Below are positions 2,307 to 49,081 of a stretch of 64,000 nt of DNA, in pieces. The position numbers and the translations under genes were made by a program. Origin of the DNA: Thiotrichaceae bacterium UBA973 (GTDB lineage: Bacteria > Pseudomonadota > Gammaproteobacteria > Eutrophobiales > Eutrophobiaceae); contig DBBX01000018.1 of the NCBI GenBank assembly GCA_002292815.1, positions 61,209 through 125,208 of the forward strand. Reading direction: 5' to 3'. How positions within the stretch are numbered: position 1 is the first letter of the stretch; every line of letters starts with the position of its first letter. The notes below the pieces were generated by a model, which made no database searches, had not been told where the DNA came from, and worked only from the letters and a program-made list of their open reading frames with translations.

Positions 2307-2594
2307 GATGCGTTGCACTCCTCCAAATTATTTTTTCATTTTCAATCTAATGAAATTCTTAGAAAAGTAGAAGAGCAATATATGTTCCAGTCTTGTGCAT
2401 TTTGCCAAATAGACCAGTTATGAATAAAAAAATCGAAATACTATGATTTTTTATATATTAAAATCAATCATATAGTGAGATCAAAAGGAATTAATTAAAG
2501 CGGGATATAGTGTCTATTCGATTGTTATAGACTTGAACTTATAGCACGAAACGCACCAAAATAGAGCGGTAAATGGCTTTATCTGTTGTTTTCC

Positions 2595-2630: not shown

Positions 2631-3584
2631 TTAAGACCAATCTTCTTCAAGAAGCCGAACTAGTTCTGTGCAGCTCTGCATTCTTTTATCTACCGATTTA
2701 TCAATACATTTCATAGCTGTTGATTCAAGTAAGCGAGGCACATGGATGTTTGTTAGTGTCGATGGTTTTGGCGGTGATTCATCTAAAATTTTCATTTTTA
2801 CTTCATCGACTGTCTCGCCTTCCGCCGGAGCTTGCCCTGCCAAGATTTCATACAGGACTACTCCCAAGCTAAAAATATCTGTTCTGAAATCAATATTGGG
2901 ATCTCGCCTAATTTGCTCAGGTGACATATAGGTGATGGTACCTTGTAGTTTTTCAGAATCTGTTATCGACGATACTTTTTCGTTCGAGATTGATTTAGTT
3001 GTGTTTGGTTCTTCCTTGCTGCTGCCGTCCGGATTCCATACTTTTGCCAATCCCCAGTCCAGTAATAACACTTCACCAAAAGGGCCAACCAGAATATTTT
3101 CTGGTTTGATATCACGATGGATTACCCTGTGGCTGTGGGCGTAATCTAATGCATAGCCGATTTGGATGACGACGTTAATTAATTGCTTCAGATCATAACG
3201 TTCTCGATAATCCAGAATTTCACGCAAGGTATAACCATGGACGAGCTTCATGGTGAAGTAGTACTGACCTTTTGAATCTCTTCCAAGTTCATACATTGGA
3301 ACCGTGTTAGGGTGCTGTAGCAGAGCACTTACTCGTGCTTCTCGCAAAAAACGCTGTTGTTCTATCGGGTCATTTGCGATCTCGGGGCGGAGTTTCTTGT
3401 AGCAGATTGTTCGTGATAGATGTAAATCTTTACAGGACTGAACAATGGCCTTTCCACCACGAGCAATAGTTTTAAAATAGGCATAGCGCATATTTTGGTC
3501 AAGTTTGAGTGGTAGTTCTTTGTCAGTATTTTCAAGATAGACAATGGCGTACTCATCACTTGGTGGTTCTGGAAAAGAGGTCAT
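2631..3584 (-). CDS. eukaryotic-like (Hanks-type) Ser/Thr protein kinase, kinase domain only
   Basis: VIHRDIKPENILV catalytic loop, DWGLAK (DFG-equivalent), SPE motif, Lys in ...KAIV... subdomain II; long activation-segment insert. Confidence 0.8.
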   Translation of the reverse strand: MTSFPEPPSDEYAIVYLENTDKELPLKLDQNMRYAYFKTIARGGKAIVQSCKDLHLSRTICYKKLRPEIANDPIEQQRFLREARVSALLQHPNTVPMYELGRDSKGQYYFTMKLVHGYTLREILDYRERYDLKQLINVVIQIGYALDYAHSHRVIHRDIKPENILVGPFGEVLLLDWGLAKVWNPDGSSKEEPNTTKSISNEKVSSITDSEKLQGTITYMSPEQIRRDPNIDFRTDIFSLGVVLYEILAGQAPAEGETVDEVKMKILDESPPKPSTLTNIHVPRLLESTAMKCIDKSVDKRMQSCTELVRLLEEDWS

Positions 3585-4028: not shown

Positions 4029-5435
4029 ATGTCGGATAATGTAATGAAATTAATAAAGGAAAACGATGTAAAATTTGTCGACATGCGTTTCTGTGATACC
4101 ACCGGTAAGGAACAGCACGTCACCATACCTGCCAGTACAGTTGATGCTGATTTTTTTGAAGAAGGCAAAATGTTTGATGGTTCTTCTATTGGTGGCTGGA
4201 AAGGTATAAATGAATCAGACATGGTCCTGATGCCAGAATGTGATACTGCAGTAATTGACCCTTTCTTTGATGATACTACTTTGATCATCCGTTGTGATGT
4301 TCTTGAGCCGGCAACAATGGAAGGCTATGGGCGCGATCCGCGTTCATTAGCAAAGCGTGCAGAAGCTTATTTGAAATCAACAGGTATTGCAGATACTGCT
4401 TACTTTGGTCCAGAACCGGAATTCTTTATCTTCGATGAAGTTCGTTGGGGTGATGAAATACATTCCGCATTCTATGAAGTTGATTCAGATGAGGGTTGCT
4501 GGAATAGTGATCGACTCGGCGAAGACGCTAATATAGGTCATCGTCCTGGTGTAAAGGGAGGTTATTTTCCTGTTCCGCCAGTGGATTCTGGCCAGAATAT
4601 TCGCTCAGCTATGTGTACGGTGCTTGAAGAAATGGGTGTAGGTGTAGAAGTACACCACCATGAAGTTGCAACAGCAGCACAAGCCGAAATTGGTACTGTG
4701 TTTAAAACATTGACCAGAAAAGCAGATGAAATATTGATCCTTAAGTATGTCGTGCAAAACGTCGCACACAGCTACGGTAAAACAGCGACGTTTATGCCGA
4801 AACCATTGGTTGGTGATAATGGTAGTGGTATGCATGTCCATCAGTCTTTGGCAAAGAATGGAGAGAACCTGTTTGCCGGTGATAAATATGGCGGTCTTTC
4901 GGATATGGCGTTACATTATATTGGTGGTATTTTCAAACATGCCCGTGCGCTCAATGCGTTTACCAATGCTAGTACAAACAGTTATAAACGATTAGTTAAA
5001 GGTTTTGAAGCGCCAACCATGTTGGCCTATTCAGCACGTAACCGTTCTGCCTCTTGTCGTATCCCTTGGGTCTCAAGCCCTAAGGCACGCCGCATCGAAA
5101 TGCGTTTTCCGGATTCATGCGGTAACCCTTATTTCACTTTCGCTTCATTGATGATGGCCGGCCTTGATGGTATCCAAAACAAGATTGATCCAGGCGAAGC
5201 ATTTGAAAAAGATTTATATGACCTGAGTATTGAAGAAGAAAAAGATATTCCAACCGTTTGTTCTTCTTTAGATCAAGCGTTAGAAGCACTCGATAAAGAT
5301 CGTGAATTCCTGACGGTTGGCGGCGTATTTACCGATGATATGATTGACGGATACATTGCCTTGAAGATGGAAGAGGTCACCCGTTTTCTTAGCACCACCC
5401 ACCCGGTTGAATTCGACATGTATTACAGTTTGTAA
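4029..5435 (+). CDS. glnA: glutamine synthetase type I
   Basis: 468 aa, canonical GSI N-terminus ([21 protein letters not shown]) and catalytic motifs ([10 protein letters not shown]); CAGGAG RBS upstream. Confidence 0.95.
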
Positions 5436-27804: not shown

Positions 27805-27937
27805 AGGTATTTGTTAAGGGTCTTCTTAAATTACTGAGATATAGATCGAAAAAGGATTTTTGCATAGTTTTATTTTATCTGACAATGCCTATAGTATATA
27901 AGGTGTAACACATTATAAATAAAAGGGGAGTGGAACT

Positions 27938-28168
27938 ATGTTTTCTGTTATTAGAAATATAAGTTTGGGAATGATATTGGGCCTAGGGTTAACCGCTTGC
28001 GGTGATGATGATAAAGCTATGCCGGCCGCAAATGATACTGCAGCAGCACCAGCACCAGCCGCAGCGCCTGCATCAGGTGAAGATGACATTTTCTCATCTT
28101 TGAACATTGAAAAAGCAGAAGGTGTTATCTATCAAGATGAGATCTATGCTAACTGGCCTTATAACTAG
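27938..28168 (+). CDS. small lipoprotein (76 aa) sharing N-terminal module and IYxNWPY motif with the downstream cytochrome c lipoprotein
   Basis: Lipobox LTAC; Ala/Pro-rich linker; C-terminal VIYQDEIYANWPYN, paralogous to VVYQEEIYKNWPYT in the next gene. Confidence 0.55.
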   Translation: MFSVIRNISLGMILGLGLTACGDDDKAMPAANDTAAAPAPAAAPASGEDDIFSSLNIEKAEGVIYQDEIYANWPYN

Positions 28169-28196
28169 ATAGTAAAGATTTGGAGTTTTTGTAAGG

Positions 28197-29123
28197 ATGT
28201 TTAGATTGTTAAAAAGTAGTCTATTAGTACTCTTTTGTGTCAGCATTTTGGTAGCTTGTGGTGACAATGATGTGCCAAAGGAAAAAGGAACAGCGACTGC
28301 TATGCAAGAAACCGCAGTTCAGTTGCCTGCCGAAACACCGGATCTATCAGTTGTAGAGCTTGTTGAGGAAGCGTCGACAGAGACAGAAATGGTAGAAACG
28401 GAGATAACGTTTCTGCCAAATCATGTCGTCTATCAAGAAGAGATTTATAAGAATTGGCCTTACACGGAAGCACCTGCTGCAAACGGGTCTGATGAAGCGA
28501 TACAAAATGCAACGGACGCAATTGCTGAAGCAAAGGCTGCTGCAGAAGTGAAAGCCGCTGAAGCAAAAGCTGCTGCAGAAGTAAAAGCCGCTGAAGCAAG
28601 GGCTGCTGCAGAAGCGAAAGCCGCTGAAGCAAGGGCTGCTGCAGAAGCGAAAGCCGCTGAAGCAAAAGCTGCTGCCGAAGCGAAAGCCGCTGAAGCAAAA
28701 GCAGTTGCAGAAGCGAAGATCGCTGAAGCAAAGGCTGCTGCGAAAATTACAGCCACAGGAGATGCTAGTACAACAGCGACGGCAACTACCGGTGATAAAC
28801 CTTATCAAGTTGTCGATGGCAAAATCAGCGCCAATGCTATGGAGGGTTGGAAAACCTACAATGGTGGTGGTTGTGGTGCTTGCCATGGTAAAGGGGGTAT
28901 CGGTGCTGTTGGCCCTAATCTAGCTCAAAGTCTTACGACGAAACTAAGCAAAGCAGACTTTGTTAACATCGTTACCAATGGTAAGTCCGGCACAATGATG
29001 AGACCACATAAGACGAATAAACGTGTTATGTCTAACTTGGATAATCTATATGCCTATTTGTTAGCACGCGGTGATGGCGTACTGGGTCCCGAAAATCTAA
29101 TCAAATCTCCACTAGGCAAGTAA
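28197..29123 (+). CDS. lipoprotein with hendecad Ala/Glu/Lys repeat linker and C-terminal class I cytochrome c domain
   Basis: Lipobox LVAC; 6.7 copies of AEAKAAAEVKA; heme-binding CGACH (CxxCH) plus a downstream Met ligand region (GTMMRPH). Confidence 0.75.
   Translation: MFRLLKSSLLVLFCVSILVACGDNDVPKEKGTATAMQETAVQLPAETPDLSVVELVEEASTETEMVETEITFLPNHVVYQEEIYKNWPYTEAPAANGSDEAIQNATDAIAEAKAAAEVKAAEAKAAAEVKAAEARAAAEAKAAEARAAAEAKAAEAKAAAEAKAAEAKAVAEAKIAEAKAAAKITATGDASTTATATTGDKPYQVVDGKISANAMEGWKTYNGGGCGACHGKGGIGAVGPNLAQSLTTKLSKADFVNIVTNGKSGTMMRPHKTNKRVMSNLDNLYAYLLARGDGVLGPENLIKSPLGK
28524..28744 (+). repeat. 33-bp tandem repeat, about 6.7 copies (encodes an 11-aa AEAKAAAEVKA hendecad)
   Basis: Directly visible periodicity gctgaagcaaaRgctgctgcagaagYgaaagcc; also generates spurious antisense ORFs 28300-28886. 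Confidence 0.85.
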
Positions 29124-29138
29124 TAGTATTTAGTCTAT

Positions 29139-29176
29139 TGACCCTTCTATCAATATAGAAGGGTCATATTTTTTCT
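29139..29176 (+). terminator. rho-independent terminator after the cytochrome c lipoprotein gene
   Basis: 11-bp stem tgacccttcta/tagaagggtca with a 6-nt loop followed by tattttttc. Confidence 0.75.
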
Positions 29177-29262
29177 AACAAGCTTGCCATCGTTCTTTGT
29201 AATTCCGAACTTGAAACCGGCTTGTGTAATAATCTTTCCTTGTTCAATATAGATCTCACATA

Positions 29263-29790
29263 ATGACTATTAGAAAATACAAAGACATTTCTCCAGACAT
29301 TCACGCAACTGCTTATATTGATGAATCAGCAGTCGTCATCGGTGATGTCATGATTGGCCAAGATAGCTCAGTCTGGCCGATGTCCGTTATTCGCGGCGAT
29401 GTCAATTCAATCACGATCGGTGCGCGTAGCAATATTCAGGACGGTTCGATCCTGCATGAATCGCATACCAGCGAATTCTTTCCCGGTTATCCGCTCGTGG
29501 TTGGTGATGATGTTACCGTCGGTCATAAAGCGATCTTGCATGCGTGCACTGTGGGCAATATGTGTTTGGTTGGTATGTCAGCCACGGTCATGGACGGTGC
29601 GGTTTTAGGCGACTACGTGATTATCGGTGCGGGTAGTCTAGTGCCACCTGGCAAACAACTTGAATCAGGCTTTTTGTATGTTGGTAGCCCGGTTAAACGC
29701 GTTCGTGAACTAAACGAAAAAGAACGTGCCTTCCTCGAATACTCTGCGAAACATTACGCGAAATTAAAAGATCAACATAAAGCGTCATAA
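29263..29790 (+). CDS. gamma-class carbonic anhydrase family protein (hexapeptide-repeat, YrdA/CaiE-like)
   Basis: Left-handed beta-helix hexapeptide repeats; His ligands in ...DGSILHESH... and ...VGHKAILH... Confidence 0.85.
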   Translation: MTIRKYKDISPDIHATAYIDESAVVIGDVMIGQDSSVWPMSVIRGDVNSITIGARSNIQDGSILHESHTSEFFPGYPLVVGDDVTVGHKAILHACTVGNMCLVGMSATVMDGAVLGDYVIIGAGSLVPPGKQLESGFLYVGSPVKRVRELNEKERAFLEYSAKHYAKLKDQHKAS

Positions 29791-35428: not shown

Positions 35429-37324
35429 ATGTCTACACATGCTGAAAAGTTCGACGTCATCATTGTTGGTGGTGGTCATGCTGGCACTGAAGCTGCTATG
35501 GCGGCTGCTCGGATGGGTGCGCGTACTTTATTGCTTACACACAGTGTAGAAACGCTCGGACAGATGTCCTGTAATCCGGCGATAGGCGGTATTGGCAAGG
35601 GTCATTTGGTTAAAGAGATAGATGCCATGGGTGGTCTAATGGCTGCTGCTGCTGACCAAAGCGGTATCCAGTTTCGTATTTTGAATTCTCGTAAGGGACC
35701 GGCTGTAAGGGCTACGCGCGCACAGATAGATCGTTCTCTATACAGGCAGGTTGTTCGACCTGCACTCGAAAATCAGAAAAACCTATTTATATTTCAACAA
35801 GCAGTAGATGACCTCATTGTGGAAGGTGAGCAGGTTCGTGGTGTAGTTACTCAAGCCGGACTGAAGTTTATGGCGCCAACAGTGGTGTTGACCGTGGGGA
35901 CGTTTTTAGGCGGCAAAATTCATATTGGTGATAGCAACCATGCGGGTGGTAGGGCAGGTGACCCACCTTCAATTGCTTTGGCGGATCGACTACGTGAATT
36001 ACCTTTTAATGTTGGGCGGCTGAAGACTGGAACGCCACCACGTATCGATGGCAGGACGATCGATTATAGTCAGTTGCAAGCGCAACCGGGCGATGATCCT
36101 GTGCCTGTATTTTCATATAGTGGTAATGTCGACCAACACCCAGAGCAGGTGTCTTGCCATATCACTTATACCAACGAACAAACCCACGACATTATTCGCG
36201 GTGCTTTGGATCGTTCGCCAATGTATAACGGCAATATAGAAGGTACCGGGCCACGTTATTGCCCCTCGGTTGAAGACAAGGTTATGCGTTTTGCCGATAA
36301 AGATGCACATCAAATCTTTATTGAACCAGAAGGATTGACTAGTAATGAGGTCTACCCGAATGGTATTTCGACATCATTGCCATACGACGCACAGATTGGT
36401 TTGGTGCGTTCGATAAAAGGTTTTGAAAATGCGCATATCACCCGGCCAGGTTATGCGATTGAATATGATTTCTTTGACCCACGTGAATTGTCTCCCTGGT
36501 TAGAGACACGTTTTATTAAAGGTTTATTTTTTGCTGGGCAGATCAATGGTACGACTGGATATGAAGAGGCGGCAGCGCAAGGTTTATTAGCCGGATTAAA
36601 TGCAGCGCTCCGAACGCAAGATCAAGAACCGTGGTTTCCACGTCGTGATGAGGCTTATTTAGGCGTATTAGTTGATGACTTGGTTACCATGGGTACGACC
36701 GAACCTTATCGGATGTTTACCAGCCGTGCAGAATATCGACTGATGCTACGAGAAGATAATGCCGATCTACGTTTAACAGAAAAGGCGCATGGATTAGGGC
36801 TCATTGATGACAATCGCTGGCGATTGTTTTCTGAAAAACGTCATGCGATTACAGCAGAATCGGAACGGCTGGAAAAAATCTGGGTCGGTTCACCAGCACT
36901 TGCACTTGAAGACACTGAGCGTCTACTTGGTCAATCATTGCGCAAGGATATAAACCTGCTACAGCTCTTGAAGAGACCAGAGATTACTTATGCTGACATT
37001 GCCAAGTTACCGAATATTGCTGTCGATGGGATTGATCCGAAGGTGTCAGAACAAGTCGAGATACAAGTGAAGTATTCCGGTTACATCCAGCGGCAAGAAG
37101 AAGAAATTGATCGTAATCGCCGTCATGAGGAATCTGAATTACCTGATGATATTGATTATCAGGAGGTTAGAGGTTTATCGTCCGAGGTCATTGAAAAATT
37201 ATCTAAACATCGGCCAATCAATTTGGGACAGGCTTCTCGTATCCAAGGCATAACACCTGCGGCAATTTCTTTACTGCGTGTACATCTGAAGAAGCAATCG
37301 CTGTTATTGCAGAAAAGTGCCTGA
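35429..37324 (+). CDS. mnmG: tRNA uridine-5-carboxymethylaminomethyl modification enzyme MnmG (GidA)
   Basis: 631 aa, FAD-binding [15 protein letters not shown], highly conserved throughout. Confidence 0.97.
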
Positions 37325-37341
37325 GCCTTTGGGCATTCTGA

Positions 37342-37962
37342 ATGCTAGAGGCGTTACAAGCAGGTCTTGATAGGCTAGATATTAAAGCTGAGCAGCCATT
37401 ATGCGACGCCTATCTAAGATATATTGAGTTACTCGTAAAATGGAATACTGCCTATAACTTAACCGCTGTAAAAGAACCGGAGGCAATGTTAAATCGCCAT
37501 GTTCTTGATTCTTTATCAGTTCACTCGTTTGTTGAAGGTAAGCACTGTCTGGATATTGGTACCGGTGCGGGCTTACCAGGAATGATATTGGCAATGGCGC
37601 AGCCAGAAAAGCACTGGACGCTACTGGATAGTAATCAGAAAAAGCTCCGGTTCCTGAGGCACGTTATCGTTGATCTCAATATCAATAATGTTGAGCTGGT
37701 TCATGGCCGTATCGAGGCATTTAAACCTTCGAAAGAATTCGACACAATAATCTGTCGTGCCTTTGCACCGTTGCTGCGGATGTTAGAACAGACTCAACAT
37801 TTACTGACAGCAGGGAATCAGTTGTTGGCGATGAAAGGGAGGCAGGTAGAAGCTGAGATTGACGAGCTAGGGAACCATGAATTTGTGATTAAGCTTAATG
37901 ACTTAGCGCATTCGGGTGATGAAACCTCGGCAAAACTGGTTCAAATAAGGCGAACAGCGTAA
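37342..37962 (+). CDS. rsmG: 16S rRNA (guanine527-N7)-methyltransferase RsmG (GidB)
   Basis: 206 aa, DIGTGAGLPG SAM motif; immediately downstream of mnmG. Confidence 0.9.
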   Translation: MLEALQAGLDRLDIKAEQPLCDAYLRYIELLVKWNTAYNLTAVKEPEAMLNRHVLDSLSVHSFVEGKHCLDIGTGAGLPGMILAMAQPEKHWTLLDSNQKKLRFLRHVIVDLNINNVELVHGRIEAFKPSKEFDTIICRAFAPLLRMLEQTQHLLTAGNQLLAMKGRQVEAEIDELGNHEFVIKLNDLAHSGDETSAKLVQIRRTA

Positions 37963-38047
37963 ATTTTTAGCTTATGGCAGCTGGGTTTCAGTATGCTAAA
38001 GTACAGTCATCAAAAATAATTAGATATCACGGTAAAACACGAATTTA

Positions 38048-38821
38048 ATGTCCAGAATCATTGCAATTGCAAATCAAAAAGGCGGGGTTGGTAAAACGAC
38101 CACGGGCGTGAATCTTGCCGCATCATTGGCTGCTGCCAAACGAAAGGTGTTATTAGTTGATTTAGATCCGCAAGGCAATGCCACCATGGGCAGTGGAATC
38201 AATAAGCAAGAACTGGAAATCTCCAGTTACGATTTATTAATGAATGATAAAACGGCAGAAGAAGTCATCGTCGAATCTCCTGAAGGCCAATATGACTTAA
38301 TCCCCACGAATTCTGATCTGACAGGTGCTGAAGTGGCATTGTTGGATGAGATGGCAAGGGAAATCAGATTACGCAATGCACTGCAACCGATTCAAGAAGA
38401 TTATGATTTTATTTTTATAGACTGCCCGCCATCATTGAATATGTTGACGGTCAATGCCTTGGTTGCTGCAAACTCAATTATGATTCCAATGCAATGTGAA
38501 TACTATGCGCTTGAAGGATTAACGGCCTTACTTGAGACTATCGAAAAGATTAAAAAATACTTAAATCCTGAACTAAAGATTGAAGGCTTGTTACGGACCA
38601 TGTATGACCCGCGTAACAATCTTGCGACACAAGTATCTGCACAGTTATTGGAACATTTTGGAGAGCAGGTCTATCGCACCATTATCCCGCGTAATGTTCG
38701 ATTAGCTGAAGCCCCGAGCCACGGCCTTGCCGCGCTTACTTATGATAAGTCATCTAGCGGTGCAGTTGCCTATCTTGCATTGGCTGGTGAAATGTTAAGA
38801 CGTGATGGCTTAGCGGCATGA
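38048..38821 (+). CDS. parA: chromosome partitioning ATPase ParA/Soj
   Basis: Deviant Walker A KGGVGKTT; 257 aa. Confidence 0.95.
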   Translation: MSRIIAIANQKGGVGKTTTGVNLAASLAAAKRKVLLVDLDPQGNATMGSGINKQELEISSYDLLMNDKTAEEVIVESPEGQYDLIPTNSDLTGAEVALLDEMAREIRLRNALQPIQEDYDFIFIDCPPSLNMLTVNALVAANSIMIPMQCEYYALEGLTALLETIEKIKKYLNPELKIEGLLRTMYDPRNNLATQVSAQLLEHFGEQVYRTIIPRNVRLAEAPSHGLAALTYDKSSSGAVAYLALAGEMLRRDGLAA

Positions 38822-38860
38822 ACATATCACCTCGTTATAACGAATTAAGGAATTAGTAAA

Positions 38861-39724
38861 TTGGTAAAGAGACGCGGTTTGGGCAAAGGTCTGGATGCAT
38901 TACTCGGCAATCCTGTTAGTAGAGCCTCTGAAGACAGTAATAATGATTCCTTAAAAACATTAGCCGTTGATCTATTACAACGTGGGCAATACCAGCCAAG
39001 AAAAGATTTTAATAAAGAATCTTTACAAGAGCTAGCAAACTCAATCAGTGCACAAGGTATCGTGCAACCAATAGTTGTACGTGCCTTACCACGTTCGAAA
39101 AAATTTGAAATCATTGCTGGTGAACGTCGTTGGCGTGCAGCACAACTAGCCGGCTTACAAGATGTGCCTGTTGTGATTAAGGATGTACCGGATAAAACGG
39201 TTATGTGTATTGCCTTGATAGAAAATATACAGCGCGAGGATTTAAACCCTTTAGAAGAAGCGCAAGCTTTAGCACGATTGATTGAAGAGTTTGACATGAC
39301 GCACGATACGATTGCCGAGGCAGTGGGTCGATCACGTTCGGGAGTGACAAACTTGTTACGTTTGTTGGAGCTCAATATCAAGGTTAAACAAATGGTCGAA
39401 TCGCGTCAGCTAGACATGGGGCATGCTCGTGCGTTATTGGCATTACCATTAAATAAACAGATGGGTGCTGCAGAGACAATAATAAAACAGGATTTATCGG
39501 TCAGGGCTACAGAAAAACTGGTCCAACAATTGTCGAGTGAGAGTAAGCAAGGAAAGGCAAAGCCAACCTCTAAAGATCCGAATATACAAAGCCTCGAAAA
39601 CAATTTATCCGAAAAGGTGGGTGCAAAAGTAACTATCAAGCAACACACCAAGGGTAAAGGTGTATTGCAAATAAATTACCATTCGCTAGATGAACTGGAT
39701 GGTATTATTAACCATATCAAGTAA
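38861..39724 (+). CDS. parB: chromosome partitioning protein ParB/Spo0J
   Basis: ParB box GERRWRAA, HTH region, 287 aa. Confidence 0.95.
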   Translation: MVKRRGLGKGLDALLGNPVSRASEDSNNDSLKTLAVDLLQRGQYQPRKDFNKESLQELANSISAQGIVQPIVVRALPRSKKFEIIAGERRWRAAQLAGLQDVPVVIKDVPDKTVMCIALIENIQREDLNPLEEAQALARLIEEFDMTHDTIAEAVGRSRSGVTNLLRLLELNIKVKQMVESRQLDMGHARALLALPLNKQMGAAETIIKQDLSVRATEKLVQQLSSESKQGKAKPTSKDPNIQSLENNLSEKVGAKVTIKQHTKGKGVLQINYHSLDELDGIINHIK

Positions 39725-40584
39725 TCAGGAATATTTAATTCCCAAGCTGCTTTACTGTCATGTAACTCAAGAAATCCGAGTAATATTTTTGATGTCTCCT
39801 CGGTTTCAACAGATTGGTCGTAATTTTTTTTCATCTATCAGATACCCACCGAGAGTATCAAAATCAATGGCGGGACTAAACAGGAAGCCCTGCAAACTAT
39901 CACATTCAAGTTCATTTAATATCAGTGGGCCAAACTGCTTGAGTGTAGTATGTGGGATATGACGATCCAGTGAAATTATAAGGTTAGCTTTTGACAGACT
40001 TCATAGCCATCCATCTCGGGCATTTTAATATTCAGCAGAATTAAATCCGGAGGTGTGTTTATGGCTGACTCAAGCCCCGATACTGAAGAGCCCGCAACAC
40101 GTACCCGCTAGCCATAATTACTCAATAATTCATGTAATAGCTTTAGATTCGATGGATTATCATCAATTATTAAGATTGTTTGCTGCGAATTGGTATCCAT
40201 CTGATTATTTTTTTTATCTGAACATCCAATTAAATTCGTTTCATTGGCCTGTGGATTGTTGTTATAGCGGTTAAAAATCACTCAGAAATTAGCATTATTC
40301 TTGGCGCTAAGCTTTGATGAGGAGGATTATACATGGCTATATTGTTTTACTTTGACTGGGTTTCATCATTCAACAAGGATTATTGTTGATGTCATTTTTT
40401 GCTTAAAACCGGGCATTGAACCCGCTATTTTAGAGAATGTTGCAGCGCAACGATTGATCATTTCCTAACAGGTCTTTATACTTGCCGTCCCCGAACAGTG
40501 AGGGGATGTAAAAAACATCGATATTTTACTGGCGCTATAGAATTTAGCCGATAGAATGTATCGCGATTTTTTGGAGTTGGGCGA

Positions 40585-40974
40585 TTGGCAGGATCAGAAG
40601 AAATAATAAAAAATCGCTCAATTGCATACAGGATGTTAATTTTTGAAGCCGGCACGATAGCATTGTGTGGACTTCTTTTTTTTGCGTTTACCAATCTTGA
40701 ATATGTTTATTCTGTGACTTTGGGTGGTTTGGCCTTTGTCGTGCCAAACGTATTATTTGTCGGGTTTTCATTGCGAACATCCACGACAGATTCAGGTAAC
40801 AGGACATTAGTCTGGTTTTTTCTAGGCGAAGTAATAAAGATTGTTACAACGATAATGATATTTGCTATTTCAATAATACTGGTTGAACCACTAAATATTG
40901 GAATGATGTTCGTTAGTTATGGATTCGTATTAATGATGAATCTAACGGGCCTAGCAATAATGATGAAACAATAA
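40585..40974 (+). CDS. atpI: ATP synthase protein I
   Basis: 129-aa hydrophobic 4-TM protein immediately upstream of atpB. Confidence 0.7.
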   Translation: MAGSEEIIKNRSIAYRMLIFEAGTIALCGLLFFAFTNLEYVYSVTLGGLAFVVPNVLFVGFSLRTSTTDSGNRTLVWFFLGEVIKIVTTIMIFAISIILVEPLNIGMMFVSYGFVLMMNLTGLAIMMKQ

Positions 40975-40981
40975 TAAATAA

Positions 40982-41896
<915 letters not shown>

Positions 41897-41912
41897 TTTT
41901 TTAATTTTGTAA

Positions 41913-42197
<285 letters not shown>

Positions 42198-42245
42198 TAA
42201 ATCATACAACGGCTTTAATAGTCATCCGACATATAGGTGATTTAA

Positions 42246-42716
42246 GTGAATTTTAATGCAACCTTAATAGGTCAGCTTGTAACTTTTGCTATCTTCGTTT
42301 GGTTTACGATGAAGTTTGTTTGGCCAATGCTGCTAAAACAAATGGAAGAGCGTGAAACACGTATCGCTGATGGTCTTGCTGCTGCAGAACAGGGTCAAAA
42401 AGACTTTGCTGAAGCACAAGAGAAATCATCTGCGGAGATAAACAAAGGTAAAGAGCAGGCAGCAACTATTATCGCGCAGGCACAAAAGCGCCACGATGAA
42501 ATAGTTGATGAAGCGAAAGATGACGCGAAAGCTGAATCAGATCGCATCAAGGAAAATGCACTGAGCGAGATCGAGCAAGAAAAAGAAAAAGCCAGGCAGG
42601 AACTGAGAAATCAGGTTGCCGCCTTGGCTATCGCTGGTGCGGAACAAATCCTGATGAAAGAAGTTGATCAAGCGGCACACAATGAAGTGCTAGCAAAGAT
42701 CAGTCAGCAGTTATAA
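42246..42716 (+). CDS. atpF: F0F1 ATP synthase subunit b
   Basis: N-terminal TM helix plus a long charged helix; 156 aa; GTG start. Confidence 0.9.
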
Positions 42717-42733
42717 GCGACAGGAATTAATAG

Positions 42734-43270
42734 ATGTTAGAAAAAGCAACCATTGCCCGACCTTATGCGAATGCGGCCTTCGATCAAGCGATTGAAGAAG
42801 GTAAGCTTGGTGAATGGTCAAGCATGCTTAATCTGCTTAGTATCATCGTTTCTGATGAGAATATGCGTGGCGTTATCAATAACCCAAAATTGAGTAGTGA
42901 ACAGCTTCATCAGTTCATCGCTGATATTTGTGGTGATAAGCTCAGTAAGACAGCTAATAACTTTACCAAGGTTTTAGTTGATGCTGAACGTATTGGTCTG
43001 GCTGCTGAAATTTTTGATCTGTTTGAACAGAAACGTGCTGCTGTAGAAGGTATTAGCGAGGTTGATGTGATTTCGGCTTATGCCTTAGATGATGCTCAGA
43101 TAAATGCAATTTCTGAATCAATTTCGAAAAGACTCAGCAAGAAAATCGATATCAATACAAAAGAAGATATTGATTTGATTGGTGGTGTGATAATTCGAGT
43201 GGGTGATTCTGTGGTTGATGCGTCTCTTCGCGGTCGTTTAAAAGAATTAAATAGTGTATTTGCGCAATAG
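42734..43270 (+). CDS. atpH: F0F1 ATP synthase subunit delta
   Basis: 178 aa, OSCP/delta family, conserved C-terminus IGGVIIRVGDSVVDASLRGRL. Confidence 0.9.
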   Translation: MLEKATIARPYANAAFDQAIEEGKLGEWSSMLNLLSIIVSDENMRGVINNPKLSSEQLHQFIADICGDKLSKTANNFTKVLVDAERIGLAAEIFDLFEQKRAAVEGISEVDVISAYALDDAQINAISESISKRLSKKIDINTKEDIDLIGGVIIRVGDSVVDASLRGRLKELNSVFAQ

Positions 43271-43292
43271 TTATTAAATAGAGGAAAGACAT

Positions 43293-44834
43293 ATGTCTAT
43301 CAGTGCAACTGAAATTAGTGATCTGATTAAAAAGAAAATCCAGTCAATGGATCTTGATACCGAAGCACGTACCGAAGGTACGGTAGTTAGTCTTGCTGAT
43401 GGTGTTGCCAGAATTCATGGCTTAAGTGATGTGATGCAGGGGGAGATGATTGAATTCCCGGGCAACACATATGGTTTAGCACTTAATCTGGAACGAGATT
43501 CTGTGGGTGCCGTTATTCTAGGTAGTTACGAGAACATCTCTGAAGGTGATGTTGTTAAATGTACTAAGCGTATTCTTGAAGTCCCTGTTGGTGAAGCCTT
43601 GTTGGGTCGCGTCGTCGACGCATTAGGTAATCCGATTGATGGTAAAGGTGACATCAACACAACAGAAAGTGCGCCAATTGAAAAGATTGCTCCTGGTGTA
43701 ATTGCAAGAAAGTCTGTTGACGAGCCTGTACAAACAGGATTGAAATCAATTGATGCGATGGTGCCGGTTGGACGAGGTCAACGCGAGTTAATCATTGGTG
43801 ACCGCCAAACAGGTAAAACGGCTGTTGCAATCGATGCCATCATTAATCAAAAAGGCACCGGTGTTAAATGTATCTATGTTGCTATCGGTCAAAAAGCATC
43901 TTCAATCAACGTTGTTATACGTAAGCTTGAAGAACATGGCGCAATGGAACATACCATTGTTGTTGCTGCTACCGCTTCTGAATCTGCAGCGATGCAGTAT
44001 GCTGCGCCTTATTCAGGTTGTTCCATGGGCGAATACTTCCGTGATAAGGGTGAAGATGCACTAATTATTTATGATGATTTGACCAAGCAAGCTTGGGCTT
44101 ATCGCCAGATGTCATTGTTATTAAAACGTCCGCCAGGCCGTGAAGCTTATCCTGGAGACGTATTCTATCTTCACTCCCGTTTATTAGAGCGTGCTTCACG
44201 TATTAATGCGGATTATGTTGAGAAGCTGACTGACGGAAAAGTAAAAGGTAAGACGGGTTCATTGACCGCTTTGCCCATTATTGAAACGCAAGCGGGTGAC
44301 GTATCAGCATTCGTACCAACAAACGTAATTTCGATTACCGACGGTCAAATCTTTCTAGAATCTGATTTGTTTAACTCTGGTTTCCGCCCAGCTATTAATG
44401 CGGGTTTGTCAGTGTCACGAGTAGGTGGTGCGGCACAAACCAAGATTATTAAGAAGTTGGGTGGTGGTATTCGTTTGGCCTTAGCGCAGTATCGTGAATT
44501 GGCGGCCTTTGCACAGTTTGCTTCTGACCTTGATGAAGCCACTCGCAAGCAGCTTGAGCGTGGTACACGTGTAATGGAATTGATGAAACAGAAACAATAT
44601 TCTCCACTCAATGTTGCGGAAATGGGCGTCAGTCTGTACGCAGTTGAGAATGATTTTATGGATGATGTCGCACTGGAAAAAATCGGTGCTTTCGAAGAAG
44701 CAATGCATGATTATATGAGAAGTGAACAGTCTGCCTTGATGGATAAGATTGGTGCTGAGGGTAATTATAACGATGATATCGAAAGTGGCTTGAAAGATGC
44801 TATCGCAAAATTCAAAGAAAACGGTACTTGGTAA
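43293..44834 (+). CDS. atpA: F0F1 ATP synthase subunit alpha
   Basis: 513 aa, Walker A GDRQTGKT. Confidence 0.98.
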
Positions 44835-47158
<2,324 letters not shown>

Positions 47159-47719: not shown

Positions 47720-49081
47720 ATGGGTCTTTGTATCGTAATTTTAGCTGCTGGGCAGGGTACGCGGATGTATTCCGATAAACCTAAGGTCTTGCATACGCTT
47801 GCAGGCAAATCATTACTAGAACATGTATACCAAACAGCTATGGGTTTATCTCATCGAGATATCTATATTGTTTATGGCCATGGTGGCGATCAGGTGCCTA
47901 ATGCCTTGCAGGATTTTCAAGTAAATTGGGTTGAGCAGGAAGAACAATTAGGCACAGGTCATGCTGTGCAACAAGTTTTACCTGATATCCCGGATGTTGA
48001 TAATGTTTTAATTCTCTATGGTGACGTGCCACTGATTACGGAAGAAAGTCTTAAGACACTGGTTGATGCTGCATCTGACACCGGCTTTTCCCTGCTAACT
48101 ACACATATTGAAGACCCCCATGGTTACGGTCGCATCATCCGTGATGAAGATAGTAATATCGTCGCTATCGTTGAAGAAAAGGATGCGACAGAAGAGCAAA
48201 AAAAGATTTTCGAAATTAATACTGGCTTCATGGTTGTTAAGGCCGATGTATTAAAGCGTTGGGTAAACGCTCTCGGTAATGATAATAAACAGAATGAATA
48301 TTATCTAACCGATATTGTTGCTAAGGCAGTAGCAGATAATGTAAATATTGCGCCTGTGTTAGCTGAGTCGAATATAGAAGTAAAAGGTATTAATAACCGA
48401 TCTCAGCTTGCAGAAGCAGAGCGATATTTTCAACTGGTACAAGCTCACCATCTTATGCATAGAGGTGTAGGCTTGTCTGATCCTGCGCGCTTCGATTTGC
48501 GTGGTGAACTTGAAATCGGGCGTGATAATGAAGTTGATATCAATGTCGTTATCGAAGGTAGGGTCAAACTTGGCAACAACGTTACTATTGGTGCCAACTG
48601 TTATATAAAAGACACGATTATTGCTGACAACGTTAATGTTCACCCTAATACGATGATCGATAATGCGGTCATTGGTAATGGTTGCAGTATTGGACCATTC
48701 GCCAGAATTCGTCCTGATACAACATTGGATGAAGATGTTCATATTGGTAACTTTGTTGAACTCAAAAAAACAGATATTGGTAAGGGTAGTAAAGTTAATC
48801 ACTTGACCTATATGGGTGATAGCCACGTTGGTACTGAAACCAATATTGGCGCTGGGACAATTACCTGTAATTATGATGGTGCTAATAAGCATCAAACGAT
48901 TATCGGAGATAAGGTCTTTGTCGGTTCAGACGTTCAGTTGATTGCACCCGTTAAGGTACATGATGGTGCGACCATTGCTGCCGGTACGACAATAACAAAA
49001 GATGTCGGAGAGAATGAATTAGCGATCAGCCGTACGGATCAAAAATCGATTCCAAAATGGAAGAGACCCACTAAAATTTAA
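47720..49081 (+). CDS. glmU: bifunctional UDP-N-acetylglucosamine pyrophosphorylase / glucosamine-1-phosphate N-acetyltransferase
   Basis: N-terminal LAAGQGTRM nucleotidyltransferase motif plus C-terminal hexapeptide-repeat acetyltransferase domain; 453 aa. Confidence 0.95.
   Translation: MGLCIVILAAGQGTRMYSDKPKVLHTLAGKSLLEHVYQTAMGLSHRDIYIVYGHGGDQVPNALQDFQVNWVEQEEQLGTGHAVQQVLPDIPDVDNVLILYGDVPLITEESLKTLVDAASDTGFSLLTTHIEDPHGYGRIIRDEDSNIVAIVEEKDATEEQKKIFEINTGFMVVKADVLKRWVNALGNDNKQNEYYLTDIVAKAVADNVNIAPVLAESNIEVKGINNRSQLAEAERYFQLVQAHHLMHRGVGLSDPARFDLRGELEIGRDNEVDINVVIEGRVKLGNNVTIGANCYIKDTIIADNVNVHPNTMIDNAVIGNGCSIGPFARIRPDTTLDEDVHIGNFVELKKTDIGKGSKVNHLTYMGDSHVGTETNIGAGTITCNYDGANKHQTIIGDKVFVGSDVQLIAPVKVHDGATIAAGTTITKDVGENELAISRTDQKSIPKWKRPTKI

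What the first reader, a model, noticed from the sequence alone, without database searches (positions are those of the whole stretch)
27938..29123. Paralogous lipoprotein pair; the larger one is a cytochrome c tethered by an 11-residue (hendecad) Ala/Glu/Lys repeat
Both genes encode lipoproteins with a lipobox Cys and a shared V(I/V)YQ(D/E)EIY(A/K)NWPY motif. The second continues into 6.7 near-perfect AEAKAAAEVKA repeats (33-bp DNA period) and ends in a mono-haem class I cytochrome c domain (CGACH). Eleven-residue periodicity is the hallmark of 11/3 amphipathic or rigid single alpha-helical spacers, so this looks like a haem domain held at a fixed distance from the membrane. The smaller gene resembles an N-terminal module duplicate. 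The perfect DNA-level repeats are slippage-prone and may vary in copy number, and hence tether length, between strains.
Basis: seen in the sequence. Interest (0 to 1): 0.55.

Follow-up and report, generated by a model that had tools for sequence, protein, structure and literature searches.

The report
Lipid-tethered cytochrome c with partner peptide
These two genes are a conserved cassette of uncultured marine Gammaproteobacteria: a tiny lipoprotein that carries one almost invariant 20-residue peptide, and a membrane-tethered cytochrome c electron carrier whose stalk has been lengthened here by a slippage-prone repeat; in other genomes a copper protein replaces the haem domain.

Summary
ORF A (27938-28168) and ORF B (28197-29123) are both lipoproteins that share the V(I/V)YQ(D/E)EIY(A/K)NWPY motif. 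B contains 6.6 in-frame copies of a 33-bp unit (AEAKAAAEAKA) and ends in a mono-haem class I cytochrome c (CGACH, invariant distal Met268).

- **Stalk:** AlphaFold2 predicts the repeat as one 90-residue helix (pLDDT 93-98). It sits between disordered segments, and tether length across the family runs from 40 to 179 residues, the window being the longest. It extends reach; it does not hold a fixed distance.
- **Copy number:** it does vary: 2.6, 3.6, 5.6 and 6.6 copies in relatives.
- **ORF A:** it is not a decayed duplicate. It is a conserved family made of a lipid anchor, an Ala/Pro spacer and a nearly invariant C-terminal peptide, and it lies directly upstream of the tethered carrier in most loci with a tethered cytochrome.
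- **Motif:** the same motif and N-terminal module also tether pseudoazurins, in one case at the same genomic slot.
- **Soluble twin:** most genomes with both loci also encode a soluble 140-aa copy of the cytochrome, usually next to regB/regA-type genes.

Best reading: a lipid-anchored periplasmic electron shuttle with interchangeable Fe or Cu heads, analogous to cytochrome cy versus c2 and to Neisseria Laz. It also carries an undescribed motif that probably docks on a partner. This is a new variant of a known kind.

The parts
27925..27930 (+). Shine-Dalgarno-like GGGGAG, 7 nt upstream of the ORF A start codon
   Evidence: Read from the sequence.
27938..28168 (+). ORF A: small lipoprotein, 76 aa (mature form about 56 aa)
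   Evidence: ORF list. 87 homologous clusters of 60-104 aa, one 100% identical on 47 contigs. No Pfam family and only sub-threshold NCBIfam noise.
27938..28000 (+). ORF A signal peptide and lipobox (LTAC; Cys21 codon 27998-28000)
   Evidence: Cys21 is invariant in 52 aligned homologues; A20 and G22 are at least 90% conserved.
28001..28105 (+). ORF A Ala/Pro-rich acidic spacer, variable in length and sequence between homologues
   Evidence: Sequences listed.
28106..28165 (+). ORF A C-terminal peptide IEKAEGVIYQDEIYANWPYN; the protein ends immediately after it
   Evidence: V63, Y65, D67, Y70, W73 and P74 are invariant. E58, K59, A60, G62, Q66, E68, I69, A71, N72, Y75 and N76 are at least 90% conserved in 52 sequences. 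It is C-terminal in 17 of the 18 genome-collection loci where a motif ORF lies upstream of the cytochrome.
28182..28185 (+). GGAG ribosome-binding site, 11 nt before the ORF B ATG. Only 28 nt separate the two ORFs, so co-transcription is likely
   Evidence: Read from the sequence. The same tight gene order occurs in L001-L005, L045-L047 and others.
28197..29123 (+). ORF B: lipid-tethered mono-haem cytochrome c, 308 aa
28197..28259 (+). ORF B signal peptide and lipobox (LVAC; Cys21 codon 28257-28259)
   Evidence: Cys21 is invariant in alignment A1; A20 and G22 are at least 90% conserved.
28260..28424 (+). Acidic leash predicted to be disordered (aa 22-76, net charge -11)
   Evidence: AlphaFold2 pLDDT <50 for aa 22-70; charge computed.
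28425..28463 (+). Internal copy of the motif, VVYQEEIYKNWPY (aa 77-89)
   Evidence: I83, Y84, W87, P88 and Y89 are invariant in 33 motif-bearing cytochromes. The same motif lies in pseudoazurin tethers. AlphaFold2 pLDDT is about 60.
28482..28751 (+). Predicted continuous alpha-helix, aa 96-185 (90 residues, about 135 A at 1.5 A per residue)
   Evidence: AlphaFold2 DSSP helix H96-185, pLDDT 93-98 per 10-residue block.
28524..28741 (+). 33-bp tandem repeat, 6.6 copies, encoding AEAKAAAEAKA hendecads. Units 3 and 4 (28590-28655) have identical DNA
   Evidence: TRF; unit list. One unit is missing in L045 and L050. The orthologous arrays have 2.6 copies in L001 and 3.6 in L004.
28752..28796 (+). 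Thr/Ala/Gly-rich hinge ATGDASTTATATTGD (aa 186-200)
   Evidence: AlphaFold2 pLDDT 40-57.
28797..29120 (+). Class I cytochrome c head, aa 201-308, net charge +8
   Evidence: PF13442. The closest solved structure is XoxG 6ONQ, by sequence (E=2e-6) and by fold (Foldseek E=1.8e-3, probability 1.0). 52 columns are invariant across the 308-aa protein in alignment A1, 46 of them in the head.
28872..28886 (+). Haem-binding CGACH (Cys226, Cys229, His230)
   Evidence: Invariant.
28998..29000 (+). Met268, the inferred distal haem ligand
   Evidence: Invariant in A1 and A4; aligns with the VMPAF methionine of XoxG.
29139..29176 (+). Intrinsic-terminator-like hairpin (12-bp stem) followed by a T-run, 16 nt after the ORF B stop codon

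Best explanation
ORF A and ORF B form a two-gene cassette for a lipid-anchored periplasmic electron shuttle.

ORF B architecture (shown):
- a lipoprotein anchor;
- an acidic disordered leash;
- a conserved 13-residue aromatic motif;
- a spacer;
- a basic mono-haem class I cytochrome c head with His230/Met268 ligation, whose closest solved relative is XoxG/cL.

Relatives (shown): ORF B is the membrane-tethered twin of a soluble 140-aa paralogue found in the same genomes. In other genomes the same N-terminal tether carries a pseudoazurin head, in one case at the same genomic slot.

This lineage (shown): the spacer grew by slippage of a 33-bp unit to 6.6 copies. The result is a predicted 90-residue Ala/Glu/Lys helix of about 135 A, the longest tether in the family. 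Copy number differs between relatives.

Mechanism (inferred): the head carries single electrons between membrane-associated respiratory complexes while the lipid anchor confines it to the membrane surface. By analogy these would be a bc1-type donor and oxidases, reductases or peroxidases. Tether length sets how far the head can reach, and each repeat unit adds about 16.5 A of stiff rod.

ORF A (architecture shown, role inferred): it is a lipid anchor, a flexible Ala/Pro spacer and the nearly invariant peptide IEKAEGV(I/V)YQDEIYANWPYN. Because the same motif sits in the tethers of two unrelated carrier folds, it most likely docks on a shared third partner rather than on the head. This is the weakest step.
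For: - Haem domain: PF13442 scores above its cut-off; CxxCH and Met268 are invariant; XoxG is the best match by sequence and by fold.
- Family architecture: 89 lipoprotein homologues combine a highly conserved head with a hypervariable tether. Tethers have a median net charge of -16 and heads +5.
- Soluble paralogue: 10 genomes in the genome collection carry a second locus. In L008 it encodes a 140-aa protein with a cleavable signal peptide. In 8 of about 11 such loci it is followed by ActS/PrrB/RegB- and ActR/PrrA/RegA-like genes.
- Cassette conservation: a motif ORF lies directly upstream of the tethered cytochrome in 18 loci of the genome collection, always beside a divergent M20 peptidase gene. 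This holds even where the cytochrome lacks the motif, as in L006, L011, L012 and L013.
- Head swap: in L047 a lipoprotein pseudoazurin (PF00127, E=2e-14) follows the 76-aa motif lipoprotein at the same slot. Its first 84 aa are 47% identical to ORF B aa 1-89, E=7e-23. At least 54 tethered pseudoazurin clusters were found, at least 33 of them with the motif.
- Helix: AlphaFold2 gives pLDDT 93-98 over aa 96-185.
- Copy number.
- Functional precedent: R. capsulatus has soluble c2 plus membrane-anchored cy (30-aa TM helix, 69-aa linker, 100-aa head), and linker length decides which partners cy can serve (PMC7876108). Neisseria has the lipid-modified azurin Laz (PMC6277709).
Against: - No redox partner is encoded within +/-6 kb in any locus. 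Neighbours are an M20 peptidase, an NAD-binding dehydrogenase, an ABC transporter, a hexapeptide protein and PhoU/PiT genes. The donor and acceptor are therefore unknown.
- Nothing has been expressed: haem attachment, lipidation and inner- versus outer-membrane location are all unverified.
- The head's best named relatives are dedicated acceptors of PQQ methanol dehydrogenases, not general shuttles.
- AlphaFold2 gives the motif only pLDDT about 60, and no partner was identified, so the docking role is conjecture.
- Some tethered cytochromes (L022, L027, L029) have no small lipoprotein gene upstream.
- The 5.6-copy allele comes from short-read assemblies (k127 for L045; the method for L050 is unknown), which can collapse perfect repeats.
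Confidence: 0.7

Rival explanations
1. ORF B is a dedicated XoxG/cL-type acceptor for a periplasmic PQQ-dependent (lanthanide) alcohol dehydrogenase, held at the membrane to pass electrons on to the respiratory chain.
For: The best NCBIfam hit is TIGR03874 'c-type cytochrome, methanol metabolism-related' (E=4e-11), and TIGR03872 MoxG also hits. The best PDB match by sequence and by fold is XoxG 6ONQ; cL entries 2D0W, 2C8S and 7C90 also appear.
Against: The scores are far below the family cut-offs (42.8 against 161.75 bits; 19.3 against 147.8). The two extra cysteines of the '4cys' family are absent. No PQQ dehydrogenase, xoxJ or pqq gene lies in the flanks of the 44 genome loci or in the 64-kb window. 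The head is swapped for pseudoazurin in the same tether, in one case at the same locus, which suits a general carrier better. The soluble twin sits next to regB/regA-like respiratory regulators.
Confidence: 0.15
2. The hendecad helix is an oligomerisation element, not a monomeric rod. Its two Ala stripes and the periodic V/I/M at unit position 11 would pack into an Ala-coil or hendecad coiled coil, making the carrier a dimer or trimer (Lpp-like) or bundling it with other helices.
For: On an 11/3 wheel, Ala occupies two opposite stripes (positions 1-5-9 and 3-7-11). Relatives carry M or I at exactly 11-residue spacing (P0001 and P0003). The segment is only about 35% charged and has no E->K i+4 pairs, unlike true SAH domains.
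Against: There are no large hydrophobic core positions in most units. Ala-based E/K peptides and A(EAAAK)n linkers are monomeric helices (own knowledge). Only a monomer was modelled, so this was not tested. Most family members have no such repeat, so oligomerisation cannot be essential to function.
Confidence: 0.2
3. Both proteins are anchored in the outer membrane, and the long tether lets the head hang down across the periplasm to inner-membrane complexes. In that case the helix is a periplasm-spanning strut, as in TolA domain II, and its length tracks periplasm width.
For: The residue after the lipid Cys is Gly, not Asp, in both proteins and across both families (CG[DE]x[DE]). By the E. coli rule this means outer-membrane sorting (own knowledge). 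The repeat gives weak TolA hits (PRK09510, E=1e-4). A 135-A rod plus about 70 flexible residues could span a periplasm.
Against: Sorting rules differ between Gammaproteobacteria, and the conserved acidic +3/+4 residues could themselves be a retention signal (own knowledge, untested). Family members with 40-aa tethers could not span the periplasm. There is no experimental localisation.
Confidence: 0.25
4. ORF A is a degenerating tandem duplicate of ORF B's N-terminus with no function of its own, which is the sense of the first reader's 'module duplicate'.
For: The N-terminal modules are homologous, and no domain family matches ORF A.
Against: There are 87 clusters of the same 60-104-aa architecture, all intact, with a nearly invariant C-terminal 20-mer and a stop codon right after it. 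The gene is present upstream of cytochromes that lack the motif, and upstream of a pseudoazurin.
Confidence: 0.03
5. The motif binds the carrier's own head, in cis for ORF B and in trans for ORF A, as a cap or auto-inhibitor of the haem edge.
For: The motif is aromatic and acidic while the head is basic. The two genes are always adjacent.
Against: The same motif accompanies two unrelated head folds. AlphaFold2 places it with only pLDDT 58-66 in both a long-tether and a short-tether protein. Contacts could not be inspected, so this test is inconclusive rather than negative.
Confidence: 0.1
6. The 5.6-copy versus 6.6-copy difference between near-identical strains is an assembly collapse of the two identical units, not a biological polymorphism.
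For: The missing unit is exactly one of the two identical units. L045 comes from a k127 de Bruijn assembly, and the 3000 bases upstream are otherwise identical.
Against: Two independent assemblies (L045, L050) share the deletion together with a linked A212G substitution that is absent from the 6.6-copy sequences. Copy number clearly differs between species whose units have diverged and cannot collapse.
Confidence: 0.3

Closest known systems
[quoted passage not shown]
   Same: A class I mono-haem head on a long flexible linker fixed to the membrane, coexisting with a soluble carrier. In cy, linker length (69 aa against about 45 aa) decides which partners can be served (PMC7876108). Here the tethered and soluble forms are true paralogues, 80-90% identical in the head.
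   Different: The anchor is a lipobox lipid, not a transmembrane helix. The head is nearest to XoxG/cL, not c2. The tether carries a conserved aromatic motif and, in this lineage, a tandem-repeat helix. A partner mini-lipoprotein gene accompanies it. The bc1-to-cbb3 role is not demonstrated.
Neisseria lipid-modified azurin Laz and the Lip (H.8) lipoprotein
   Same: A lipoprotein electron carrier (PMC6277709) whose Ala/Glu/Pro-rich N-terminal region is shared with a second small lipoprotein made of that region alone (AAEAP repeats; own knowledge, Woods et al. 1989). It is likewise a pair of a carrier and a 'tether-only' lipoprotein.
   Different: The repeat and motif are different, there is no sequence similarity, and the two Neisseria genes are not an adjacent cassette. 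In the family studied here the shared element is a short invariant peptide, not the repeat.
XoxG / cytochrome cL (PDB 6ONQ, 2D0W; TIGR03872, TIGR03874)
   Same: The closest solved and named relatives of the head: 26% identity over 119 columns, with a shared NK.VM...LY.YL.AR..G C-terminal helix.
   Different: Scores are far below the family cut-offs. There is no PQQ-dehydrogenase context and no extra Cys pair. The protein is lipidated and tethered, and its head is interchangeable with pseudoazurin.
Pseudoazurin/cytochrome c550 and plastocyanin/cytochrome c6 interchange
   Same: A copper carrier and a haem carrier doing the same job (own knowledge). Here both heads occur on the same tether, in one case at the same locus.
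   Different: In the known cases these are separate, differently regulated genes for soluble proteins. Here the exchange is a domain swap behind a conserved lipoprotein tether module.
TolA domain II and designed A(EAAAK)n rigid linkers
   Same: Ala/Glu/Lys-rich sequence predicted to form one long helix that acts as a spacer. There are weak TolA profile hits (E=1e-4).
   Different: This is compositional resemblance only (21.5 bits against a cut-off of 213). The salt-bridge pattern is K->E at i+3 and i+4, and the unit is 11 residues (5+6), not 5.

Membership tests
Class I c-type cytochrome (Pfam PF13442 / PF00034) | The profile score reaches the curated cut-off | tested here: met
   PF13442 scores 37 bits against a cut-off of 27, E=4.2e-9, aa 212-288. 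PF00034 scores 18.8 against 21.3, just below its cut-off.
Class I c-type cytochrome (Pfam PF13442 / PF00034) | A single CxxCH near the domain N-terminus and a distal Met about 40 residues downstream | tested here: met
   C226-G-A-C229-H230 and M268 are invariant in 33 and in 44 homologues. M268 aligns with the XoxG Met.
Class I c-type cytochrome (Pfam PF13442 / PF00034) | All-alpha class I fold | tested here: met
   Foldseek top hits are XoxG, cytochromes c6, and the c-domains of NirN and NirS, with probabilities of 0.85-1.0 for the top 20 but modest E-values (the best is 1.8e-3). The apo model has low pLDDT around the haem site.
Class I c-type cytochrome (Pfam PF13442 / PF00034) | Covalently bound haem and redox activity | not testable with these tools
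   Needs expression, haem staining and spectroscopy.
XoxG / cytochrome cL (TIGR03872, TIGR03874) | NCBIfam equivalog score at or above the cut-off | tested here: not met
   TIGR03874 scores 42.8 bits against 161.75; TIGR03872 scores 19.3 against 147.8.
XoxG / cytochrome cL (TIGR03872, TIGR03874) | Gene neighbourhood containing a PQQ methanol or alcohol dehydrogenase (xoxF/mxaF, xoxJ) | tested here: not met
   None was seen among the conserved neighbours of the 44 genome loci (about +/-6 kb each) or among the window ORFs that were annotated. The rest of each genome was not examined.
Bacterial lipoprotein | An N-terminal signal peptide ending in a lipobox [LVI][ASTVI][GAS]C | tested here: met
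   LTAC in ORF A and LVAC in ORF B. The Cys is invariant in both family alignments. This was judged by pattern only; no SignalP/LipoP-type predictor was available.
Bacterial lipoprotein | Lipid modification and the membrane (inner or outer) of residence | not testable with these tools
   The +2 residue is Gly and +3/+4 are acidic; the sorting rule for this lineage is unknown.
Membrane-anchored cytochrome cy type carriers | An N-terminal transmembrane-helix anchor | tested here: not met
   The anchor is a cleavable lipoprotein signal peptide. ORF B is therefore a functional analogue, not a CycY family member.
Membrane-anchored cytochrome cy type carriers | A long linker plus a class I head, with a soluble counterpart in the same organism | tested here: met
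   The tether is 179 aa and the head 108 aa. A soluble 140-aa paralogue lies at a second locus in the same MAGs.
Membrane-anchored cytochrome cy type carriers | Electron transfer between bc1 and terminal oxidases | not testable with these tools
   There is only indirect support: the soluble twin lies next to regB/regA-like genes.
Charged single alpha-helix (SAH / ER-K) domain | Very high E/K/R content with dense E->K/R i+4 pairs | tested here: not met
   The 78-residue repeat segment has 44 Ala, 13 Glu and 14 Lys+Arg. It has 0 E->K pairs at i+3 or i+4, 6 K->E pairs at i+4 and 6 at i+3.
Charged single alpha-helix (SAH / ER-K) domain | Forms a stable monomeric helix in isolation | tested here: inconclusive
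   AlphaFold2 predicts one helix at pLDDT 93-98, but a monomer prediction cannot distinguish a single helix from a coiled coil.
YQ(D/E)EIY(A/K)NWP motif lipoproteins (family defined in this report) | Lipobox, low-complexity spacer and the motif, encoded next to or within a tethered electron carrier | tested here: met
   Both ORF A and ORF B fit. The family matches no Pfam or NCBIfam model, and no paper in the searched library contains the motif string.

The most novel reading that the evidence does not exclude
The mini-lipoprotein (ORF A) and the tether motif are a previously unrecognised 'plug' system. In it, a nearly invariant lipid-tethered peptide, IEKAEGV(I/V)YQDEIYANWPYN, docks on a respiratory membrane complex. 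The same peptide, built into carrier tethers, recruits interchangeable haem (cytochrome c) or copper (pseudoazurin) heads to that complex. Tether length would be tuned in evolution by repeat slippage. This would be a modular way of wiring periplasmic electron transfer in abundant uncultured marine Gammaproteobacteria, and possibly of switching between Fe and Cu carriers.
Probability: 0.3. Interest if true: 0.7.

Novelty: new variant of a known kind. Interest (0 to 1): 0.55.

Why it matters
Membrane-tethered cytochromes are known, and work on cytochrome cy shows that tether length decides which partners a carrier can reach. Three things here are new.

- A natural series exists in which tether length changes in 11-residue steps (about 16.5 A if helical) through a slippage-prone repeat. 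That is a ready-made ruler for testing distance dependence in periplasmic electron transfer.
- A conserved genomic slot, together with a shared N-terminal tether module, can carry either a haem head or a copper head. This bears on iron and copper economy in the ocean.
- A tiny lipoprotein consists of little more than an almost invariant 20-residue peptide that no database family describes. Its partner, once found, would probably identify the respiratory complex these carriers serve.

All carriers of the cassette found here are uncultured MAGs, so none of this has been seen experimentally.

Tried and rejected
- Rfam gathering-threshold scan of the whole window: no RNA family.
- Full-text search for the motif strings IYANWPY, IYKNWPY, YANWPYN and EIYKNWP: no paper contains them.
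- Exact-sequence cluster look-up of ORF B and its two allelic forms, to count length variants: none is in the collection. I used locus retrieval through ORF A and a flank DNA pattern instead.
- AlphaFold2 of ORF B and of the short-tether homologue P0023, to see whether the motif docks on the head. The motif gets pLDDT 58-66 only, and contacts and PAE are not returned, so the result is inconclusive.
- Search for a redox partner in the neighbourhoods: the flanks are housekeeping genes or variable (IS3-type transposases, a hybrid histidine kinase, a LuxR-type regulator), and nothing is respiratory.
- P0181 (2657 aa, 41 matched stretches) and P0219 in the profile search are low-complexity or repeat artefacts and were ignored. 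P0217, P0225 and P0230 match only the signal-peptide and spacer part.
- NCBIfam hits of the repeat to TolA, EntC, DivIVA, DnaX and others are compositional and far below the cut-offs.
- The JGI label 'major membrane immunogen' on two ORF A homologues was treated as an unspecific lipoprotein annotation.
- No sigma-70-like promoter was found upstream of ORF A on the + strand; the consensus scan returned no more sites than shuffled sequence.
Full report
**1. What is in the sequence**

The region holds two same-strand ORFs 28 nt apart. ORF A is 27938-28168 (76 aa) and ORF B is 28197-29123 (308 aa).

- Both begin with a hydrophobic signal sequence ending in a lipobox: LTAC in A and LVAC in B.
- A ends in ...IEKAEGVIYQDEIYANWPYN-stop. 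B has VVYQEEIYKNWPY at aa 77-89.
- Tandem Repeats Finder gives a single array at 28524-28741: period 33, 6.6 copies, 90% matches, no indels, score 338. The only other array in the 64-kb window is much weaker (42982-43021, 1.9 copies of 21 bp, score 52).
- The array is in frame. It encodes AEAKAAAEVKA x2, AEARAAAEAKA x2 (identical DNA), AEAKAAAEAKA, AEAKAVAEAKI and AEAKAA.
- A 12-bp hairpin plus a T-run follows ORF B at 29139-29176.

**2. The haem domain**

- Pfam PF13442 matches aa 212-288 (E=4e-9, above its cut-off).
- CGACH is aa 226-230. Met268, in GT(M/L)MRP, is invariant in alignments of 33 and 44 homologues. It aligns with the axial-Met region of XoxG.
- The closest solved structure is XoxG (6ONQ), by sequence (E=2e-6) and by fold (Foldseek E=1.8e-3, probability 1.0, 119 columns, 26% identity). 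Cytochromes cL and generic class I cytochromes follow.
- The best NCBIfam model is TIGR03874, 'methanol metabolism-related c-type cytochrome'. The score is 42.8 bits against a cut-off of 161.75, so this is a relative, not a member.

**3. The family and its tether**

A search of 5.8 billion proteins found 89 true homologues of 171-306 aa. All share one plan:
- a lipobox;
- a low-complexity tether;
- a very conserved 108-residue head: DKPYQVVDGKISANAMEGWKTYNGGGCGACHGKGG...MRPHKTNKRVMDNLDNLYAYLVARGDGVLGPGNLIKSPLGK.

Tether length from the lipid Cys to the head runs from 40 to 179 aa, with a median of 89. The window protein is the longest. Tethers are acidic (median net charge -16) and heads are basic (median +5; window +8).

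Tether chemistry is heterogeneous: Glu/Val/Ala-rich, Pro-rich, Gln/Ser-rich and helical-looking, or very short. AEAKA-type hendecads occur only in the window's closest relatives (P0001-P0006, L001, L004).

**4. The repeat as a helix**

AlphaFold2, run with a 33-sequence alignment, predicts aa 96-185 as one helix with pLDDT 93-98. That is 90 residues, or about 135 A at 1.5 A per residue. The regions around it are weak:
- aa 22-70 have pLDDT <50;
- the motif region scores about 60;
- the ATGDASTTATATTGD hinge scores 40-57.

The rod is therefore embedded in a flexible leash. It adds stiff length but cannot fix the distance from the membrane.

The repeat segment is 56% Ala and about 35% charged. 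It has six K->E i+4 pairs, six K->E i+3 pairs and no E->K pairs. This looks like Ala-based helical peptides, A(EAAAK)n linkers or TolA domain II (weak TolA hits). It does not look like a classical ER/K single alpha-helix.

On an 11/3 wheel, Ala forms two opposite stripes. Relatives have I or M at exact 11-residue spacing. Self-association therefore cannot be excluded, and it was not tested.

**5. Copy number varies**

- Retrieving contigs through the 100%-identical ORF A gave L046 (NCBI GCA_030835525.1; ORF B 308 aa). It also gave L045 (ENA k127 assembly; ORF B 297 aa).
- L045 is identical over the 3000 bases upstream and lacks exactly one of the two identical units.
- A DNA-pattern scan of JGI metagenomes found a further contig, L050, with the same 297-aa allele. 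It carries the same linked A212G substitution. That argues for a real strain allele, although collapse in short-read assembly cannot be ruled out.
- Between species the orthologous array has 2.6 copies in L001 (96% matches) and 3.6 copies in L004.

**6. ORF A is a conserved partner, not a relic**

Eighty-seven clusters of 60-104 aa share its architecture:
- a signal peptide and lipobox;
- a variable Ala/Pro spacer;
- an almost invariant C-terminal 20-mer followed directly by the stop codon.

An exhaustive profile search of 1.84 billion representatives found only 53 clusters. No Pfam or NCBIfam model describes them, and the motif string appears in no paper in the searched library.

In the genome collection, all 44 loci come from uncultured MAGs, nearly all labelled as marine Gammaproteobacteria and some as 'Thiotrichaceae UBA4486'.
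- In 18 of these loci a motif ORF lies immediately upstream of a tethered cytochrome.
- These loci always sit beside a divergently transcribed M20 peptidase gene.
- This includes loci whose cytochrome lacks the internal motif: L006, L011, L012, L013, L021 and L031.
- Three tethered cytochromes (L022, L027, L029) have no such neighbour.

**7. A soluble twin**

Ten MAGs carry a second locus whose product matches only the head, at about 80-90% identity. In L008 it is a 140-aa protein with a cleavable signal peptide.

In 8 of about 11 such loci it is followed by genes whose best matches are ActS/PrrB/RegB and ActR/PrrA/RegA redox regulators. Both score below the equivalog cut-offs, 268 against 350 bits and 190 against 250 bits.

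A tethered form paired with a soluble form is the arrangement known from R. capsulatus cy and c2. There, linker length (69 against about 45 residues) decides whether the reaction centre or only the oxidase is served (PMC7876108).

**8. Interchangeable heads**

The profile search also returned longer proteins in which the motif precedes a cupredoxin domain (P0190, P0211, P0228).
- P0228 (PF00127, E=2e-14; best NCBIfam pseudoazurin) lies in L047 at the same slot as ORF B. The order is M20 peptidase, then the 76-aa motif lipoprotein, then the carrier.
- Its first 84 residues are 47% identical to ORF B aa 1-89 (E=7e-23).
- A search with P0228 found at least 54 lipobox-bearing tethered pseudoazurin clusters. 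At least 33 carry the motif, and some carry it twice. About 60 soluble pseudoazurins were also found.
- In L048 and L049 a two-motif pseudoazurin has no separate small gene called upstream, and it keeps the downstream hexapeptide-protein gene seen in the window.

The constant parts are therefore the lipid-anchored tether module and the motif. The redox head is exchangeable between a haem fold and a copper fold.

**9. Mechanism**

Shown:
- the architecture;
- conservation of the cassette;
- the soluble paralogue;
- the head swap;
- the predicted helix;
- the copy-number variation.

Inferred:
- ORF B is a single-electron shuttle confined to a membrane surface.
- The tether sets its reach.
- The motif is a docking element for a shared third component.

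The last inference rests on three observations. The motif accompanies two unrelated heads. It is more conserved than either head. And it exists on its own as ORF A.

AlphaFold2 gave the motif only pLDDT 58-66 in both a long-tether and a short-tether protein. It forms a small hairpin plus a one-turn helix. This gives no support for docking on the head in cis, but the test is weak.

No donor or acceptor is encoded nearby. The rest of the window is origin-proximal housekeeping: mnmG, parB, atp genes, glmU, glnA, glyQS. Whether the anchor sits in the inner or the outer membrane cannot be told. The +2 residue is Gly and +3/+4 are acidic throughout both families.

**10. Comparison with known systems and verdict**

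Functionally this is the cy/c2 principle with a lipid anchor, as in Neisseria Laz (PMC6277709) and in Bacillus lipoprotein cytochromes (the latter from my own knowledge). The pairing of a carrier with a 'tether-only' lipoprotein recalls Neisseria Laz and Lip/H.8 (own knowledge).

It is not a member of CycY (no TM helix), of XoxG/cL (below cut-off, no PQQ context) or of the SAH domains (composition).

The new elements are the invariant-peptide mini-lipoprotein, the motif shared by haem and copper carriers on the same tether module, and the repeat-driven extension of the tether.

I rate it a new variant of a known kind, with interest 0.55. The hendecad observation alone would rate lower; the cassette and head swap raise it.

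Noticed in passing
window 29120-29228 (the 46-aa ORF at 29164-29304 on the minus strand): This stretch aligns at 83% with L001 6806-6914, which includes the last ~65 nt of a 575-aa hybrid histidine kinase gene that is intact in L001 (6850-8577, minus strand). The window keeps only this 3' remnant (...LLHKPVSSSELQRTMASLLEKI). The kinase has been deleted here, and in L001 IS3-type transposase genes lie next to it.
   Followed up: partly
L008 5971-6393 and 8817-10605; similar in L015, L017, L023, L026, L028, L030, L034: The soluble 140-aa paralogue of the cytochrome head lies between a cinA-like gene and a RegB/PrrB-like histidine kinase plus RegA/PrrA-like response regulator, followed by panD, panC, panB and folK. 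In three loci a TonB-dependent receptor gene is inserted between the cytochrome and regB.
   Followed up: partly
L047 6001-6696; L048 984-1976; proteins P0228, P0190, P0231-P0280: This is a large set of lipoprotein-tethered pseudoazurins. Many carry one or two copies of the YQ(D/E)EIYKNWP motif, and in L047 the pseudoazurin occupies the same genomic slot as the tethered cytochrome. Soluble pseudoazurins of about 145 aa are their closest untethered relatives.
   Followed up: partly
proteins P0193, P0208, P0212: These are head-less lipoproteins with two tandem copies of the motif. P0193 looks like the N-terminal module of a carrier fused to the C-terminal peptide of the mini-lipoprotein. A more distant subgroup has an extended conserved stretch, (L)EAYDPDVPSMVVEDNGV...EEIYK.WP.
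   Followed up: no
protein P0013 (303 aa): A different lineage lengthened its tether another way, by an exact duplication of a ~52-residue segment (DAPVMNETIADVSQMVDQAIAPVTEQAQ...VVVVPPP) rather than by short-unit slippage. Its sister P0016 (251 aa) has one copy.
   Followed up: no
window 56008-58077 (+): This 689-aa ORF has no Pfam family at E<=1e-6. It gives only a weak NCBIfam match to fused MFS/spermidine-synthase proteins (NF037959, 50.8 bits, above that model's cut-off of 40).
   Followed up: partly
window 1290-2318 (-) and 4029-5435 (+), with 2631-3584 (-) between them: Two glutamine-synthetase-family genes lie close together: a full-length GlnA, and a shorter, divergent 342-aa copy with weak domain scores. 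A eukaryote-type Ser/Thr protein kinase gene sits between them.
   Followed up: no
window 35429-47158: The genes mnmG (gidA), parB and the atp operon lie together, followed by glmU at 47720-49081. This is an origin-proximal chromosomal region, so the cassette sits a few kb from the likely replication origin neighbourhood.
   Followed up: no
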